Positions 6,733 to 18,153 of a DNA stretch of 27,686 bases are shown here, one piece after another. Source of the stretch: a virus; UHGV virus genome UHGV-0385766; one strand, written 5' to 3'. The position numbers and the translations under genes were made by a program. The notes beneath the pieces were generated by a model. The model saw only the letters and a list, made by a program, of their open reading frames with translations. It was not told the DNA's origin and did no database searches. Position 1 is the first letter of the stretch. Each line of letters starts with the position of its first letter.

Positions 6733-7830
6733 TCAAGAGGTCTTATTCCTGCTCCTTTGGAGCTCTTCAAAACGATTATGTAAAGATTTCGGATACAGTT
6801 CGGTATATACCTGCCATAGCACGTTTAATGAACGATGCCCTGTAACCTGGGCTACTTCCTCAATACTAAAACCAGCCTCAAATAAGCGACTTGCCCCTTC
6901 TCTACGCAAATCATGGTATCGCAGATCCTTAATACCTAATTTGCTTCTTACCCTCTGAAATCCCGCAGTAACAGAAGTGCTGTTATATGGAAAAATGAAT
7001 TCCGATTTTTGGGGCTGTCGTTGGACGATATCCCAGGCTTCCCCAAGCAAGGCTACTTTCATGTGGTTGCCTTCCTTTTTGCGTGGATCTTTCCTGTCTC
7101 TTACGAGTATAGATTTTTGTTCCTGGTCGAGATCTTCCCATCGTAACCGGCATACTTCTCCGATTCGCATACAGGACCACACAGAAAATTTGAGGATATC
7201 AACGAACGGAATTTTTGAGCATTTATGAGTAGATCGTTGTTGAAGGCCTTCAATGAGCATGTCCAGTTCATCAGATGCTGGTCTACGATTACGACGGTTT
7301 GATTTACCAATCAAACCAAGTTTAAGTAGATATGGACGAGCACTTTTCGCCGGGTTTGATGTGTAATTAATTCCGTATACAGGTTTGGCCGCATCCAGAA
7401 CACTGCCAAGATAACTAACATCGTGGCTGACTGTTGCTGGACCTGCACCAGCGTTGTTTCTTAGCCTGCAATGTTCAATTACGTCATTTTCTGTCAGTTC
7501 AGATAGTTTGATCGCGGATATGTCACTATCCATAAGCAGTTCCAGCACATATCTTTTAGTACGGCCAGCTTTACCTCCAGCATTTGGGTCATTTAAATAT
7601 TTGTGTAGTAAGTCACGGACTGTAAGTCCGTCAACTGCATTTGATGATGGAATGCCATATAGATCTAATTCCATCACTTTCTGTGTGCCCCATGTTTTGG
7701 CATGAGCATGTTTAGGGAATGTTTTGCTTTCCCTGTAAGTGATAACACCTTTTTCTTTGATAATTACATTACAGCGATAGCGTGGTGTGCCATCGGATTT
7801 TAGTCGTTTCTCTATGTTATAGTACGCCAT
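6733..7830 (-). CDS. int: Tyrosine integrase (phage integrase family)
   Basis: 365-aa ORF; C-terminal catalytic region HDLRREGASRLFEAGFSIEEVAQVTGHRSLNVLWQVYTELY carries the R...HxxR...Y pattern. Confidence 0.9.
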   Translation of the reverse strand: MAYYNIEKRLKSDGTPRYRCNVIIKEKGVITYRESKTFPKHAHAKTWGTQKVMELDLYGIPSSNAVDGLTVRDLLHKYLNDPNAGGKAGRTKRYVLELLMDSDISAIKLSELTENDVIEHCRLRNNAGAGPATVSHDVSYLGSVLDAAKPVYGINYTSNPAKSARPYLLKLGLIGKSNRRNRRPASDELDMLIEGLQQRSTHKCSKIPFVDILKFSVWSCMRIGEVCRLRWEDLDQEQKSILVRDRKDPRKKEGNHMKVALLGEAWDIVQRQPQKSEFIFPYNSTSVTAGFQRVRSKLGIKDLRYHDLRREGASRLFEAGFSIEEVAQVTGHRSLNVLWQVYTELYPKSLHNRFEELQRSRNKTS

Positions 7831-10124: not shown

Positions 10125-10801
10125 CACTTCACCTCCTGCGGCGGTTCTGGTAGAGGCATCCAATTGATTACATCGCATTCAGGTATGCTGATATCATCAC
10201 CAAGCCACCCTTGACCTTCAGACCAGCATTGCACGTAATACCCGTATTCTGTGTTCACTACGCACCACTGCGCGTCGTTCGGCATTCGCTCACTACAGCT
10301 TATCCAACCATCCGGAATTACCGGAGAGTTGCCACCGGGAATATTTTCCGGAATATTTTGTTGTGCGTTTTGTGGTTGTTCGGATTTACCCTGAAGCATG
10401 GCGGCGCAGCAGGCGTTCCATGAAATTTCCTGAAGGGAACGACGAATCTGTGTGCTGCATATACTCCTCCCTGACTCCTGGCTGTTAAACCATGTTTCAA
10501 ATTCCGGCACTACTGGTGCTGGTTGGGTGGTGACATTGGCAAAGGCTGCACGCACCCCGGCCTTAATTTCCTCTACCTCATCAGCACCTGGCGATGAATC
10601 TGACAGTGCGTGATGGAATGCGTAAGCCATGTCGTCGTTGATTTCTACAGGCACACTATCAGCCTTGCGGCGCTCCTGTAGCTCGCGCAGAGCCGCTACA
10701 ACATAATGGCTATTGTGCTGGTCAGCCCACAGAATGAGCCGAATCAACGTTGCATTTGAAACGTATTCGTCTGTTAGTTTGCTATTGGTAAAAGTCGTCA
10801 T
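10124..10801 (-). CDS. DUF551 domain protein
   Basis: 225-aa ORF; Trp/Cys-rich C-terminal domain GWISCSERMPNDAQWCVV... typical of DUF551; start overlaps the HNH stop (ATGA at 10798-10801). Confidence 0.65.
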   Translation of the reverse strand: MTTFTNSKLTDEYVSNATLIRLILWADQHNSHYVVAALRELQERRKADSVPVEINDDMAYAFHHALSDSSPGADEVEEIKAGVRAAFANVTTQPAPVVPEFETWFNSQESGRSICSTQIRRSLQEISWNACCAAMLQGKSEQPQNAQQNIPENIPGGNSPVIPDGWISCSERMPNDAQWCVVNTEYGYYVQCWSEGQGWLGDDISIPECDVINWMPLPEPPQEVK

Positions 10802-11163
10802 GCCGTAGCCCCTTCTTGATATTTTTCAAACCAGAACACAACCGGGTCAGATTTCATTTCAACCAACCCCATACGAACCAGCGCTTTGCCTTTCCCGGAC
10901 GCAAGGAATTCACGACGACCATCACTGATAATTCGCCGATAATCTTCCAGGCTACTGCAATGCTTATGCAGATTGCATGGGTGGCATGCCGGAACCATGT
11001 TGGATATATCGTCACGTTCCTGGTGAAGCATATTTCCAGCAAAACGAATGACCGGTTTTACATGGTCTGCATGCCACTTTTCGCCAAGTTCGCAGCCGCA
11101 ATAAGCGCAGCGACCGCCGAACTTCATGCGCAGTTCTGCACGTTGTTTTTTCGTCAGTGCCAT
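10798..11163 (-). CDS. HNH endonuclease
   Basis: CAYCGC...HADH...CHPCNLHKH zinc-finger/HNH motifs; start MALTKK at 11163 with AAGGAAA Shine-Dalgarno. Confidence 0.7.
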   Translation of the reverse strand: MALTKKQRAELRMKFGGRCAYCGCELGEKWHADHVKPVIRFAGNMLHQERDDISNMVPACHPCNLHKHCSSLEDYRRIISDGRREFLASGKGKALVRMGLVEMKSDPVVFWFEKYQEGATA

Positions 11164-11164
11164 A

Positions 11165-11383
11165 TCAGCTTTCCTTATATGGATTAATTTTATTGTGCAG
11201 TGTGTTGAATGACGCCCATACCACGTCGTTATACAATTCAATAACTGGCTCAATTATTTTCCCGATTCCCCATACCAGAATTAACGGGGATATCGGTATC
11301 ATCAACACGATAAACAGAATGAGAAACAGAAATTCTGTCGCTCTACTTTTTCGCGGATATTCTTTTCTGAATAATGTAGTCAT
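11165..11383 (-). CDS. Small single-pass membrane protein (72 aa)
   Basis: Hydrophobic segment FLFLILFIVLMIPISPLILVWGIG; AT-rich; preceded by an AGGAGG-hairpin-AUG arrangement. Confidence 0.5.
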   Translation of the reverse strand: MTTLFRKEYPRKSRATEFLFLILFIVLMIPISPLILVWGIGKIIEPVIELYNDVVWASFNTLHNKINPYKES

Positions 11384-11389
11384 TTCTTA

Positions 11390-11405
11390 CCGCCCTTTCG
11401 GGCGG
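11390..11405 (-). promoter_or_regulatory. Perfect hairpin between Shine-Dalgarno and start codon
   Basis: CCGCCC-TTTC-GGGCGG (GAAA tetraloop on the minus-strand RNA); AGGAGG lies immediately 5' of it (complement of 11406-11411) and AUG 6 nt 3' of it. Confidence 0.5.
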
Positions 11406-11415
11406 CCTCCTGACA

Positions 11416-11628
11416 TTAATCGTTGTAATAACTCATAGCTTCATTTGCAGCATCAACTGGATCAACATCCCACCAGCAATAATTTGGCTCGACTCCTTCA
11501 GGTGTCCACAGTTCTAATTCATTTTTTGCCGCATTCTCGTCGCCAGTAATTTTAAAAATCTGCTCAGAAAATTTCCTCACCCACTCGTTATATTTTTCCG
11601 TATTAATGGTTTTCTGTGTATTTAACAT
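11416..11628 (-). CDS. Hypothetical small acidic protein (70 aa)
   Basis: ORF with GGAGGT Shine-Dalgarno 6 nt upstream; AT-rich; no family recognised. Confidence 0.5.
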   Translation of the reverse strand: MLNTQKTINTEKYNEWVRKFSEQIFKITGDENAAKNELELWTPEGVEPNYCWWDVDPVDAANEAMSYYND

Positions 11629-11678
11629 AGATATACCTCCAGTTAAGGATTTGATTTTATTTACAGTGCTAAATTTAT

Positions 11679-12035
11679 TTATTCAGTTCTGGATTTCGTC
11701 GCCCTGCGTATCCGCGCTTTCGCGTTACGCTCAATCTGAATTAACTTTTCTATATTTTTCCGCCTTTCCTGTTCCTCCTGGCGCAATAGCCTTACATCAT
11801 CTGCCAGTCTGGTTTCTCTTTTCGCCACTGAGAGCATCCAGTCAAACGGCTCCACAACTGCACCGCAGATTTTACAGCGGACCTGACGCTCTTTTTCGTC
11901 AACCCGGACAGAAGCGTGATGGCAGTATGGTCTTTCCGATGGCTCATAAAGAAAATTAACTTGATTACGTGGGTCATCCTCTTTTACCGGAAATAAAACA
12001 ATATTACTTAACTCATTTTCTAGTTTTATTTCCAT
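11679..12035 (-). CDS. Hypothetical protein with Cys/His cluster and basic C-terminal coiled coil
   Basis: Start MEIKLENEL at 12035 with AAGGAGAGGAG Shine-Dalgarno; the track ORF extends to 12143. Confidence 0.6.
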   Translation of the reverse strand: MEIKLENELSNIVLFPVKEDDPRNQVNFLYEPSERPYCHHASVRVDEKERQVRCKICGAVVEPFDWMLSVAKRETRLADDVRLLRQEEQERRKNIEKLIQIERNAKARIRRATKSRTE

Positions 12036-12228
12036 ACTCCTCTCCTTTGATGCGCAAGTGGTTTTTCCAGCGGTTTTGCGCCGCGCTGCGCTTATCTTTG
12101 ATTCCCTCTCTGGCAATTCCAGAATATAAGTACAACACCACACGGCGATTGCTAACTCTCAACCACTGGCTGGGATAGCAACGTCTGTATACACGGGAAA
12201 TAAGCATCTTTGCTTTACGGTTTTTCAT
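12013..12228 (-). CDS. Hypothetical small basic protein (71 aa)
   Basis: ATG at 12228 with AGGAGAG Shine-Dalgarno 7 nt upstream; overlaps the next gene by 23 nt; composition unusual, so uncertain. Confidence 0.35.
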   Translation of the reverse strand: MKNRKAKMLISRVYRRCYPSQWLRVSNRRVVLYLYSGIAREGIKDKRSAAQNRWKNHLRIKGEEYGNKTRK

Positions 12229-12399
12229 CGTTTTGCTCTCCTGCGTCTCTTTGCTGCTCGTCGTGCCGCTGCAATACCGGTATGGCGGCGCTTTGGTGCC
12301 GGGATGATGTTGTCAGCCATCAGGACATGCGGCTTTGTAATTAGCGCAGAAGCCTAAAAACGAGTCGGATACGGTAACAAGCCGATACATGCACACGCA

Positions 12400-12753
12400 T
12401 TACTCACCTCCTTTACCCTGAAGCATGGCGGCGCGGCAGGCGTTCCAGCCATCAGCATATGTTTCAGTTACACCGTCGAGATGGCAGGTAAGCAAATCCA
12501 TTTCATCAGGCACTACCAGCGTTGGCGGCGCGGTGTAAAGCTGGTGCGTTCCATCAGGCAGCGAGTGACCTACATACTCACCGAACCCGTCAACACACAT
12601 GCACCCATCCTCAATAATACATGACGCCACTGGTTCTGCTTCCAGCGATGCCAAAGCAATCCGTGCCACTTCCATTTGTTCGCTACGAGTAAACCCGTTT
12701 TCAAGCGAATTTTTAATGAACAATTCAATACGTTCTTTGGTGATAGCGTTCAT
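12400..12753 (-). CDS. Hypothetical protein (117 aa) sharing a C-terminal WNAC[R/C]AAMLQGK motif with 10124-10801
   Basis: ATG at 12753 with AAGGAA Shine-Dalgarno; a 36-bp near-identical DNA segment is shared with 10385-10420. Confidence 0.6.
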   Translation of the reverse strand: MNAITKERIELFIKNSLENGFTRSEQMEVARIALASLEAEPVASCIIEDGCMCVDGFGEYVGHSLPDGTHQLYTAPPTLVVPDEMDLLTCHLDGVTETYADGWNACRAAMLQGKGGE

Positions 12754-17466: not shown

Positions 17467-18153
17467 TTACCAAGTGCGCGATGACCAGAATACTCTACCT
17501 ATAACGTGAATTCTGGAACGCCTATCTTCGAAGGTGAGTATTTCATCTGGATACTCATCTTTATTGAAACTTCTTAGAATCAGACCACCGTCAGGTAAAT
17601 TGATCAATATTTTAACTCTAAGTAATACGCCATCACGTATGGCATAAAGATCCCCATCACGAATAGGAACCGTTTGGGAAACATCAACAGCAACAAAATC
17701 TCCATTGTTAAGTACAGGTAGTAAACTATTGCCCCAAATTTTTACGATCTTTGCATTGGAGACACATACACCAGCTTTTCTTAAATCAATCCTTCTTAGC
17801 GGGAACCAGTCTACAGTTGATTCAACTATTTCAGCCAAACATCCATTACCCGCTGATAACTCGACATCTAGGACTGGAATGTTTGCAAAAATGTCAGGAT
17901 CTAATGCTGTACTTTCAGCCTCCTTTACAACAAGGTCTGGGAAAGACGCGTTATCCTCAATGCCCAATTGCAACCACTTTTGAGAAACCCCTAACACTTT
18001 AGCAATCTCTTTAATTTTCCGAGGCTGTTGAGTTTCTCCATTCTCGATTTTCGCTACGGATTGTTGTGAAAGCCCAATTTTTTCAGCTAGTTGCGCCTGA
18101 CTCATTCCTGCTTTTTCTCTTTCGCTTTTTAGTCTTTCTGCCAATGTTTTCAC
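17467..18153 (-). CDS. cI: CI-like repressor (N-terminal HTH, C-terminal S24 LexA-like peptidase domain)
   Basis: GTG start with GAGGGGG Shine-Dalgarno; HTH QAQLAEKIGLSQQSVAKIENG; Ala-Gly site (SAGNG) and Ser/Lys dyad region (GNSLLP ... LRVK). Confidence 0.9.
   Translation of the reverse strand: MKTLAERLKSEREKAGMSQAQLAEKIGLSQQSVAKIENGETQQPRKIKEIAKVLGVSQKWLQLGIEDNASFPDLVVKEAESTALDPDIFANIPVLDVELSAGNGCLAEIVESTVDWFPLRRIDLRKAGVCVSNAKIVKIWGNSLLPVLNNGDFVAVDVSQTVPIRDGDLYAIRDGVLLRVKILINLPDGGLILRSFNKDEYPDEILTFEDRRSRIHVIGRVFWSSRTW

What the first reader, a model, noticed from the sequence alone, without database searches (positions are those of the whole stretch)
11165..11640. AT-rich islet encoding a small membrane protein whose ribosome-binding site is split from its AUG by a perfect hairpin
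Two small genes in a stretch far more AT-rich than their neighbours suggest an inserted unit. Upstream of the 72-aa single-pass membrane protein, the transcript reads AGGAGG, then the hairpin CCGCCC-GAAA-GGGCGG, then UAAGAA-AUG. The Shine-Dalgarno is 22 nt from the AUG in linear sequence but about 6 nt away if the hairpin forms. That is a structure-dependent translation switch. Small phage membrane proteins under tight translational control are often toxic, for example division inhibitors or exclusion factors.
Basis: partly seen in the sequence, partly recalled or inferred. Interest (0 to 1): 0.45.

Follow-up and report, generated by a model that had tools for sequence, protein, structure and literature searches.

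The report
Portable hairpin-bridged ribosome-binding cassette in lambdoid prophages
The hairpin between the ribosome-binding site and the start codon is real, but it belongs to a short conserved cassette that many E. coli prophages place in front of unrelated genes and recombine at, so it is most likely a constitutive start signal of the phage T4 gene 38 type, not a switch for this membrane protein.

Summary
AGGAGG (11411-11406) is followed by the hairpin CCGCCC-GAAA-GGGCGG (11405-11390), then UAAGAA, then the AUG (11383) of a 72-aa DUF4014 protein with one strongly hydrophobic segment. Both small genes are 37% G+C, against 49% for the window.

The element is not specific to this gene. The same AGGAGG-plus-hairpin block precedes at least six unrelated ORF families in lambdoid prophages, always 6-11 nt before the start codon. 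It has two alternative upstream flanks, and homology between phages switches exactly at it. The window looks like the product of recombination between two cassette copies that lie about 1.07 kb apart in phage ArgO145.

DUF4014 carries the cassette in 710 of 5,426 complete E. coli genomes. In 371 genomes it has an ordinary unsplit SD with no hairpin.

The best reading is a constitutive, hairpin-bridged ("split") Shine-Dalgarno start site. T4 genes 38 and 25 and E. coli thrS are published precedents. Here the site also serves as a recombination linker.

I found no sign of a switch. The hairpin is predicted to be always folded, and neither arm has an alternative partner. Covariation is too sparse to prove selection on the structure, and the effect on translation is untested. 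Nothing here tests whether DUF4014 is toxic.

The parts
11636..11640 (-). Ordinary Shine-Dalgarno (GGAGG, 7 nt before ATG 11628) of orf70. The sequence around it (AAUCCUUAACUGGAGG) is shared with the 'leader' flank of cassettes in other phages.
11416..11628 (-). orf70: a 70-aa acidic soluble protein (phrog_4659, no Pfam family, function unknown). It is one of the two alternative upstream flanks of the cassette.
11406..11411 (-). AGGAGG, the Shine-Dalgarno of the cassette. It directly abuts the stem, and its last G can pair with U11389.
   Evidence: GGAG is kept in 77 of 79 leader-anchored copies.
11390..11405 (-). Hairpin CCGCCC-GAAA-GGGCGG: 6 G-C pairs with a GNRA tetraloop, -12.4 kcal/mol. 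It is also the mosaic joint.
11384..11389 (-). A-rich spacer UAAGAA between the stem and the AUG. It contains no SD-like word. UAA here is an in-frame stop that fixes the start codon.
11165..11383 (-). 72-aa DUF4014 gene: a predicted N-in single-pass membrane protein under purifying selection.
10798..11163 (-). HNH endonuclease gene (121 aa), starting 1 nt after the DUF4014 stop with its own AAGGA SD. It also follows DUF4014 in ArgO145.

Best explanation
The 30-nt block AGGAGG / CCGCCC-GAAA-GGGCGG / A-rich spacer is a self-contained, portable translation-initiation cassette of the early-left (repressor-to-integrase) operon of Escherichia/Shigella lambdoid prophages.

In the mRNA the GNRA-capped stem is folded essentially all the time. 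That loops out 16 nt, so the strong SD on its 5' side sits 5-6 nt (6-11 nt in other genes) from the AUG on its 3' side. The 30S subunit binds SD and AUG together with the hairpin protruding, as shown experimentally for T4 genes 38 and 25 and for E. coli thrS. It acts as a constitutive start site, not a switch.

The same block sits before many different genes, so it also serves as a short patch of homology at which genes are exchanged or deleted. The window's orf70-cassette-DUF4014 junction is such a recombinant.

Shown here: the anatomy, the predicted stability, the recurrence before unrelated ORFs at constrained spacing, the absence of another SD, and the mosaic breakpoints. Inferred: that ribosomes actually use the bridged SD, and that the hairpin is needed for it.
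For: (1) Geometry and stability. The spacing falls from 22 nt to 6 nt. The stem is -12.4 to -14.4 kcal/mol with pair probability about 1, and the SD is unpaired.

(2) Recurrence. More than 120 IMG/VR contigs carry the exact 21-mer. The downstream ORFs fall into at least six BLAST-unlinked clusters. Spacers are family-specific and narrow: 6, 7, 8-9, 10 and 11 nt. In the leader-anchored sample the spacer counts are 7 nt in 49 copies, 9 in 14, 6 in 5, 8 in 2 and 11 in 2.

(3) The element hugs the start codon, not the upstream stop. The upstream stop is 5 nt away in one flank type and 60-130 nt away in the other.

(4) No other SD. Spacers such as UAAGAA, UAGUUAA and UAAUGAAAA contain no GGAG, GAGG or AGGA. 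When the same ORF families lack the cassette, they have a normal SD 6-9 nt upstream: AAGGAG-AGUGAU-GUG for DUF4014 and UAAGGAAAACUGAA-AUG for the TELTKEQ family.

(5) In an anchor-selected sample that is unbiased with respect to the hairpin (n=79), GGAG is kept in 77 copies. The 2 copies with a broken SD are among the 7 with no ORF of >=30 aa downstream (Fisher p=0.007).

(6) Stem variation is mostly pairing-compatible on the mRNA strand. C-to-U changes that keep a G.U pair number 48, 51, 3 and 1 sequences at four stem positions. There is one compensatory G-C to A-U change (CCACCC/GGGTGG) together with its intermediate. In the unbiased sample 69 of 79 copies have 6/6 pairs.

(7) Precedent. For T4 gene 38 the spacing goes from 22 to 5 nt, and for gene 25 from 27 to 11 nt; destabilising mutations lower translation (PMC3014915). 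E. coli thrS has a split ribosome-binding site (PMC3936740).

(8) Recombination joint. Megablast matches end at window 11388 and restart at 11379. ArgO145 copy 1 matches the window 91% upstream and 57% downstream. Copy 2 matches 55% upstream and 92% downstream. Both upstream flank types combine with three downstream families.
Against: Translation was not measured.

Covariation is statistically null: 1 double change, with 169 of 500 shuffles doing as well. The SD and stem are not clearly more conserved than the 7-nt flank. Haplotype differences per site are 1.17 (SD), 2.0 (5' arm), 0.83 (3' arm) and 2.29 (flank). So conservation could reflect recent recombination and not selection on RNA.

C-to-U changes in the 5' arm (13 sequences) only modestly outnumber disruptive G-to-A changes in the 3' arm (7 sequences). 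Disruptive variants persist with intact downstream ORFs, for example CGGCCC in 14 sequences and CCACCC/GGGCGG in 14.

One ORF family has its own GGAG after the hairpin (UGGAGAUAAUA-AUG), so there the bridged SD is not needed. The Citrobacter braakii copy has an intact SD and hairpin but no start codon after it.

In unrelated bacteria the same 21-mer is simply part of a longer terminator stem. The GGAGG could therefore be a relic of a stem and not an SD.
Confidence: 0.52

Rival explanations
1. One reading: a regulated, structure-dependent translation switch that keeps a toxic small membrane protein under tight control.
For: The split geometry is real. DUF4014 is a predicted single-pass membrane protein of unknown function in a phage accessory region. 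In the window context the AUG is predicted to pair with the end of the orf70 coding sequence, with unpaired probability 0.06. That could couple it to orf70 translation.
Against: The cassette precedes at least six unrelated, mostly soluble ORF families. DUF4014 is equally at home behind a plain SD, in 371 genomes. The hairpin is folded with probability about 1 and neither arm has an alternative partner. The AUG-occluding long-range pairing is matched by 5.5% of shuffled upstream sequences and cannot form in the leader-type contexts. There is no Rfam hit.
Confidence: 0.07
2. The hairpin is mainly an mRNA stability or processing element, and its position next to an SD is secondary. It could block 3' exonucleases to protect the upstream segment of the long early-left transcript, or guide RNase E to the adjacent A/U-rich spacer.
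For: It is a GC-rich GNRA hairpin with no U-tract, followed by an A/U-rich single strand. It lies at gene boundaries in a long polycistronic operon. The same sequence works as the core of a terminator stem in other bacteria.
Against: This does not explain why the element always lies 6-11 nt before a start codon while its distance to the upstream stop ranges from 5 to about 130 nt. It also does not explain why no other SD is available for the downstream genes.
Confidence: 0.15
3. The element matters only at the DNA level. It is a conserved linker ('boundary sequence'), or the relic of a truncated terminator, that persists because recombination keeps copying it. Downstream genes are translated weakly or independently of an SD.
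For: Homology breakpoints fall exactly at the element, and flanks combine freely. Covariation is not significant, and conservation is no stronger than in the flank. Longer palindromic terminators share the same 21-mer.
Against: A pure recombination patch need not keep a perfect SD abutting the stem, nor sit at SD-like effective spacing from each of six different start codons. Broken SDs are found only where no ORF follows. Most stem changes preserve pairing on the transcribed strand.
Confidence: 0.15
4. The GNRA hairpin is a protein-binding site, for example for an arginine-rich boxB-type binder or a translational repressor, that controls several early-left genes at once.
For: The stem-loop CCC-GAAA-GGG resembles the GNRA-like boxB loops of lambdoid nut sites (my own knowledge, not tested here). 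The sequence is identical in front of several genes, as expected for an operator.
Against: There is no boxA-like partner, and the element lies about 5 kb from the repressor-proximal end of the operon. I identified no candidate binding protein. Loop variants (GGCA, UAAA) are tolerated.
Confidence: 0.04

Closest known systems
Split (hairpin-bridged) translation initiation regions of phage T4 genes 38 and 25 (Nivinskas et al. 1999; Malys & Nivinskas 2009; reviewed in PMC3014915)
   Same: A strong SD lies too far from the AUG in linear sequence: 22 nt in gene 38 and 22 nt here. An intervening stable hairpin reduces this to 5-11 nt. No SD lies in the normal window.
   Different: The T4 cases are each tied to one gene and one junction, and they are proven by mutation and probing. 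Here one identical cassette serves at least six unrelated genes, moves by recombination, and is untested experimentally.
E. coli thrS 'split ribosome binding site' (Sacerdot et al., as discussed in PMC3936740)
   Same: The ribosome accommodates a folded hairpin between two single-stranded parts of its binding site.
   Different: The thrS hairpin is an operator bound by ThrRS for autoregulation. No regulator is indicated here.
Conserved 'boundary sequences' at module joints of lambdoid phages (Clark et al. 2001, HK620, from my own knowledge; the concept is cited in PMC3029335)
   Same: A short conserved intergenic sequence is flanked by non-homologous genes, and homology switches exactly at it.
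   Different: Here the boundary sequence has a specific anatomy (SD plus GNRA hairpin) that suggests it also works as an RNA element. I could not read the HK620 paper, so I do not know whether this particular sequence is among those it describes.
Rho-independent terminators built on the same word (GGAGGCCGCCC-GAAA-GGGCGGCCTC + U-run) in unrelated bacteria
   Same: The 21-nt core is identical.
   Different: In those terminators GGAGG is paired with a downstream CCUC(C) and a U-tract follows. In the prophage cassette both are missing, GGAGG is single-stranded, and a start codon follows.

Membership tests
Hairpin-bridged (split) Shine-Dalgarno initiation region, T4 gene 38/25 type | Strong SD at a linear distance from the start codon too long for normal initiation (more than about 13 nt) | tested here: met
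   AGGAGG ends 22 nt before AUG 11383.
Hairpin-bridged (split) Shine-Dalgarno initiation region, T4 gene 38/25 type | Intervening sequence folds into a stable hairpin that restores a 5-11 nt effective spacing | tested here: met
   A 6-7 bp stem at -12.4 to -14.4 kcal/mol with pair probability about 1 leaves 6 nt. The spacer is 6-11 nt in all other instances. This is prediction only.
Hairpin-bridged (split) Shine-Dalgarno initiation region, T4 gene 38/25 type | No alternative SD at canonical spacing | tested here: met
   The spacer UAAGAA has no SD core. The only G-rich word, GGCGG, lies inside the stem. One other ORF family does carry its own GGAG.
Hairpin-bridged (split) Shine-Dalgarno initiation region, T4 gene 38/25 type | Stem-destabilising mutations reduce translation and compensatory ones restore it | not testable with these tools
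   This needs reporter fusions or toeprinting.
Hairpin-bridged (split) Shine-Dalgarno initiation region, T4 gene 38/25 type | Phylogenetic support for the structure | tested here: inconclusive
   92.5% of cells are paired, with one compensatory change and several G.U-preserving changes. This is no better than shuffled controls (169/500).
Recombination linker / boundary sequence of lambdoid mosaics | Short conserved sequence at a gene boundary with unrelated sequence on either side in different genomes | tested here: met
   Breakpoints fall at 11388/11379. Flank identities are 91/57% and 55/92%. Two upstream flank types each combine with three of the downstream ORF families.
Intrinsic (Rho-independent) terminator | GC-rich hairpin immediately followed by a U-tract | tested here: not met
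   The hairpin is followed by UAAGAAAUG, and by CCUCCUGAC on the opposite strand. The scan of 10700-12300 found no terminator-like sites.
Moron (autonomous inserted gene unit) | Own promoter and terminator flanking the inserted gene(s) | tested here: not met
   No promoter-like site lies upstream of either gene on the minus strand, and there is no terminator. The two genes assort independently.
Pfam DUF4014 (PF13198) | HMM score above the gathering threshold over the full length | tested here: met
   89.2 bits against a cut-off of 23.2, residues 1-71 matching positions 1-71 of the 72-position profile. The protein also matches phrog_1832 at 2e-45.
Riboswitch / RNA thermometer / known cis-regulatory RNA | Match to a curated RNA family, or alternative mutually exclusive structures | tested here: not met
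   The only Rfam match up to E=10 is a chance-level one (RAGATH-22, 15 bits against a threshold of 120). A single dominant structure is predicted.

The most novel reading that the evidence does not exclude
The cassette is a 'plug-and-play' expression adaptor. It is a mobile, context-insulated split-SD start site whose invariant 22-30 nt also provide the homology for exchanging, deleting or capturing accessory genes in lambdoid early-left operons. Any ORF recombined in behind it would be translated at once. That would tie the mechanism of phage mosaicism directly to a translation signal, and the cassette may have been exapted from the 5' half of a terminator stem.
Probability: 0.35. Interest if true: 0.55.

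Novelty: new member of a known kind. Interest (0 to 1): 0.4.

Why it matters
If the bridged SD works as proposed, this would be a natural split ribosome-binding site outside the T4 and thrS textbook cases. It would also be a modular one, shared by unrelated genes and present in about 13% of complete E. coli genomes.

In practice it corrects the annotation logic for these operons, because the SD of several small genes lies 22-27 nt upstream. It also removes the basis for treating DUF4014 as a specially controlled toxin.

Tried and rejected
Searches that found nothing useful:
- Rfam scan of 10500-12500 at E<=10: only a chance-level hit.
- Promoter and terminator scan: nothing brackets the two genes.
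- Literature: no paper mentions DUF4014 or contains the hairpin sequence. The legacy label 'sugar acetyltransferase inhibitor' could not be traced. Prophage sRNAs of EHEC (PMC4104026) lie elsewhere, downstream of PR'.
- NCBIfam and PADLOC: no hit for either small protein.
- AlphaFold plus Foldseek: DUF4014 is a kinked long helix with no viral match. orf70 is a three-helix bundle with pLDDT 70 and no PDB match at E<=0.001.

Tests that did not reach significance:
- Covariation on 23 unbiased haplotypes.
- Asymmetry between C-to-U changes in the 5' arm and G-to-A changes in the 3' arm: only 13 against 7 sequences.
- Long-range pairing of the AUG with the end of orf70: not distinguishable from shuffles.

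A check that changed the reading:
- The genome-contig scan suggested a broad taxonomic spread. The non-enteric hits turned out to be ordinary extended terminator palindromes.

Ideas considered and rejected: intrinsic terminator (no U-tract on either strand), moron, nut/boxB site (wrong place, no boxA), translational bypass or frameshift (the two ORFs occur separately in other phages).

Full report
WHAT IS THERE. The genes of this part of the window run on the minus strand. They lie between a CI-type repressor (17467-18153) and an integrase (6733-7830), among typical lambdoid early-left accessory genes: Ead/Ea22, DUF2303, an Rv2179c-like exonuclease, DUF551 and HNH.

Read 5' to 3' on that strand, the finding consists of the following parts.
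- An ordinary SD (GGAGG, 11640-11636).
- orf70 (11628-11416, stop UAA).
- UGUC.
- AGGAGG (11411-11406).
- CCGCCC-GAAA-GGGCGG (11405-11390).
- UAAGAA.
- AUG 11383, which opens a 72-codon ORF ending at 11165.
- An HNH endonuclease gene that starts one nucleotide later.

The hairpin is predicted at -12.4 kcal/mol. With the extra G11406-U11389 pair it reaches -14.4. Its pair probabilities are >=0.999, and SD positions 1-5 stay unpaired. An SD, then a GC-rich 6-bp hairpin, then ATG appeared in only 1 of 100 dinucleotide shuffles of the window.

THE TWO GENES. The 72-aa product is a full-length DUF4014 (PF13198, 89 bits; phrog_1832).
- It has one very hydrophobic stretch (Kyte-Doolittle 3.01, residues 19-37) and a positively charged N-terminus, so it is a predicted N-in single-pass membrane protein. 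AlphaFold gives a proline-kinked long helix.
- The family is narrow (Escherichia, Shigella, Salmonella; all hits >=64% identical) but abundant. It has an invariant C-terminal LHNK-NP motif and dN/dS of about 0.22. It is a real gene.
- Its function is unknown. The database labels ('sugar acetyltransferase inhibitor', 'released from the phage upon host infection') could not be traced to any paper. PADLOC, NCBIfam and fold searches were empty.

orf70 is an acidic, soluble, probably three-helix protein of equally narrow distribution and unknown function. Both genes are 37% G+C against 49% for the window, so the 'AT-rich' observation holds.

THE ELEMENT IS A SHARED CASSETTE, NOT A FEATURE OF THIS GENE.
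- Megablast against phage genomes never covers the whole region. One set of phages (ArgO145, several Stx2a phages) matches orf70 plus the hairpin and stops at window 11388. Another set (933W, Sakai VT2 and others) matches DUF4014 from 11379 onwards.
- In 933W and pPE4, DUF4014 has no hairpin. Its GTG or ATG start follows the upstream stop, and an ordinary AAGGAG lies 6 nt before it.
- In ArgO145 the motif occurs twice: after orf70 in front of a different 60-aa gene, and about 1.07 kb further on in front of DUF4014.
- Across all fetched loci the ORFs behind the cassette form at least six BLAST-unlinked clusters. These are a 60-aa acidic protein, a heterogeneous 'TELTKEQ' group, DUF4014, a 173-aa protein, a 66-aa protein and a 194-aa protein. 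The start codon is always 6-11 nt after the stem, and the spacer length is characteristic of each family.
- Upstream there are only two flank types. One is the end of orf70. The other is a roughly 65-nt AT-rich 'leader' whose 5' part is the same sequence that precedes orf70 in the window. Both flank types occur with each of the three commonest downstream families.
- Among complete E. coli genomes, 710 of 5,426 have the cassette-DUF4014 junction and 371 have the 933W-type junction. The whole orf70-cassette-DUF4014-HNH arrangement is in 484 genomes.
- Among one-genome-per-species representatives, the lambdoid form appears only in Shigella flexneri, Citrobacter braakii and a contig binned as Collinsella.

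THE CASSETTE IS A RECOMBINATION JOINT. The 120 nt upstream of the window's cassette are 91% identical to ArgO145 copy 1 and 55% identical to copy 2. The 120 nt downstream are 57% and 92% identical respectively. The window therefore has exactly the structure expected from recombination between the two direct copies of an ArgO145-like ancestor, with loss of the three genes between them. Several contigs carry two copies 1,063-1,064 nt apart.

This replaces the 'inserted AT-rich unit' reading. The two genes are independent modules brought together at the cassette, and no promoter or terminator brackets them.

HOW IT MOST LIKELY WORKS. The best-supported mechanism is a constitutive hairpin-bridged SD.

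Arguments for it:
- The geometry is nearly identical to T4 gene 38 (22 to 5 nt) and close to gene 25 (27 to 11 nt). In those genes, mutations that destabilise the hairpin lower translation (PMC3014915). E. coli thrS is another case in which the ribosome accommodates a folded hairpin inside a split binding site (PMC3936740).
- The element always abuts the next start codon, whatever lies upstream.
- The spacers are A-rich and have no SD. The same ORF families have a normal SD at 6-9 nt whenever the cassette is absent.
- In a sample selected through the leader, which is blind to the hairpin sequence (n=79), GGAG is intact in 77 copies. The two broken SDs occur where no ORF follows (Fisher p=0.007, small numbers).
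- Most stem substitutions are C-to-U changes that keep G.U pairs on the transcribed strand. One G-C to A-U compensatory change exists together with its A.C intermediate.

Arguments that limit it:
- Covariation is not significant.
- The stem and SD are not clearly more conserved than the neighbouring 7 nt.
- Disruptive variants persist with intact ORFs.
- One ORF family carries its own SD after the stem.
- The Citrobacter copy has no ORF behind it.
- In unrelated GC-rich bacteria the same 21-mer is simply part of a longer terminator palindrome whose 3' half pairs with the GGAGG. The cassette may therefore descend from a truncated terminator, and its SD-like word may be inherited and not selected.

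I put the bridged-SD function at about 0.5-0.55. The recombination-joint role is much more secure.

WHY NOT A SWITCH. A switch needs two states. Here the stem is predicted to be closed essentially always. Neither arm has a conserved competing partner, no curated RNA family matches, and the element works in front of genes of every kind.

In the window's own context the AUG is predicted to pair with AGUUAUU near the end of orf70, which could couple the two genes. But 5.5% of shuffled upstream sequences do as well, and the pairing cannot exist in the leader-type contexts.

The orf70 stop lies only 4 nt before the SD. A terminating ribosome would therefore cover the SD and the foot of the stem, so some termination-reinitiation coupling in this particular arrangement is possible. 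That is inference only.

COMPARISON WITH WHAT IS KNOWN, AND NOVELTY.
- As a mechanism this is the known split-SD kind (T4 genes 38 and 25, E. coli thrS).
- As an evolutionary object it is the known 'boundary sequence' kind proposed for lambdoid mosaics (the concept is cited in PMC3029335; Clark et al. 2001 from my own knowledge).
- The combination may be undescribed: one identical split-SD cassette that serves many unrelated genes and acts as the crossover point. I found no paper containing the sequence, but the library lacks most subscription journals.
- I class it as a new member of a known kind. It is not a terminator (no U-tract), not a moron, and not a known regulatory RNA.

VERDICT. Interest is moderate at 0.4.

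Noticed in passing
window 11384-11411 compared with L001 1810 and 2882: The window's orf70-cassette-DUF4014 junction has the structure of a deletion by recombination between two direct cassette copies about 1.07 kb apart in ArgO145-type phages. Three small genes would have been lost.
   Followed up: yes
L125-L131, L135-L137 (genome-contig hits): The identical 21-mer occurs in unrelated GC-rich bacteria as part of longer palindromic terminators (GGAGGCCGCCC-GAAA-GGGCGGCCTC plus a T-run). This hints that the prophage cassette could be an exapted, truncated terminator stem.
   Followed up: partly
L001 2835-2881 (leader-type flank); window 11629-11665: The roughly 65-nt leader that replaces orf70 in many phages has its own hairpin, GGAGGG-AUUUCUGCA-CCCUC. 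That hairpin sequesters an SD-like word, and its CCUC could alternatively pair with the cassette SD. The leader also contains an anti-SD-like UCCUU. Its 5' part is the same sequence that precedes orf70 in the window.
   Followed up: partly
window 11381-11383 with 11428-11434 (minus strand): The DUF4014 AUG region is predicted to pair with AGUUAUU near the 3' end of orf70 (AUG unpaired probability 0.06). This is not significant against shuffled upstream sequence (5.5%).
   Followed up: yes
L015 and five other loci: A second candidate SD-hairpin-ATG arrangement with a different stem, CAGAGG-CGGCTT-GATAA-AGGCTG-TTT-ATG, lies before a 60-aa ORF.
   Followed up: no
window 12013-12399 (minus strand): The 364-nt 'gap' between orf117 and orf118 holds two small ORFs. 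One is Arg-rich and 31 aa long (12225-12320). It overlaps, through a shared ATGA, a 71-aa ORF (12013-12228) whose N-terminus MKNRKAK recurs after cassette remnants in other loci.
   Followed up: no
window 11165-11383: Database labels for DUF4014 ('sugar acetyltransferase inhibitor' in NCBI/ArgO145; 'released from the phage upon host infection' in phrog_1832) have no traceable experimental source in the searchable literature.
   Followed up: partly
window 11161-11180: The HNH endonuclease gene starts 1 nt after the DUF4014 stop (GCUGAUAUG). Its ordinary AAGGA SD lies inside the DUF4014 coding end, which is the usual coupled arrangement and contrasts with the cassette.
   Followed up: partly
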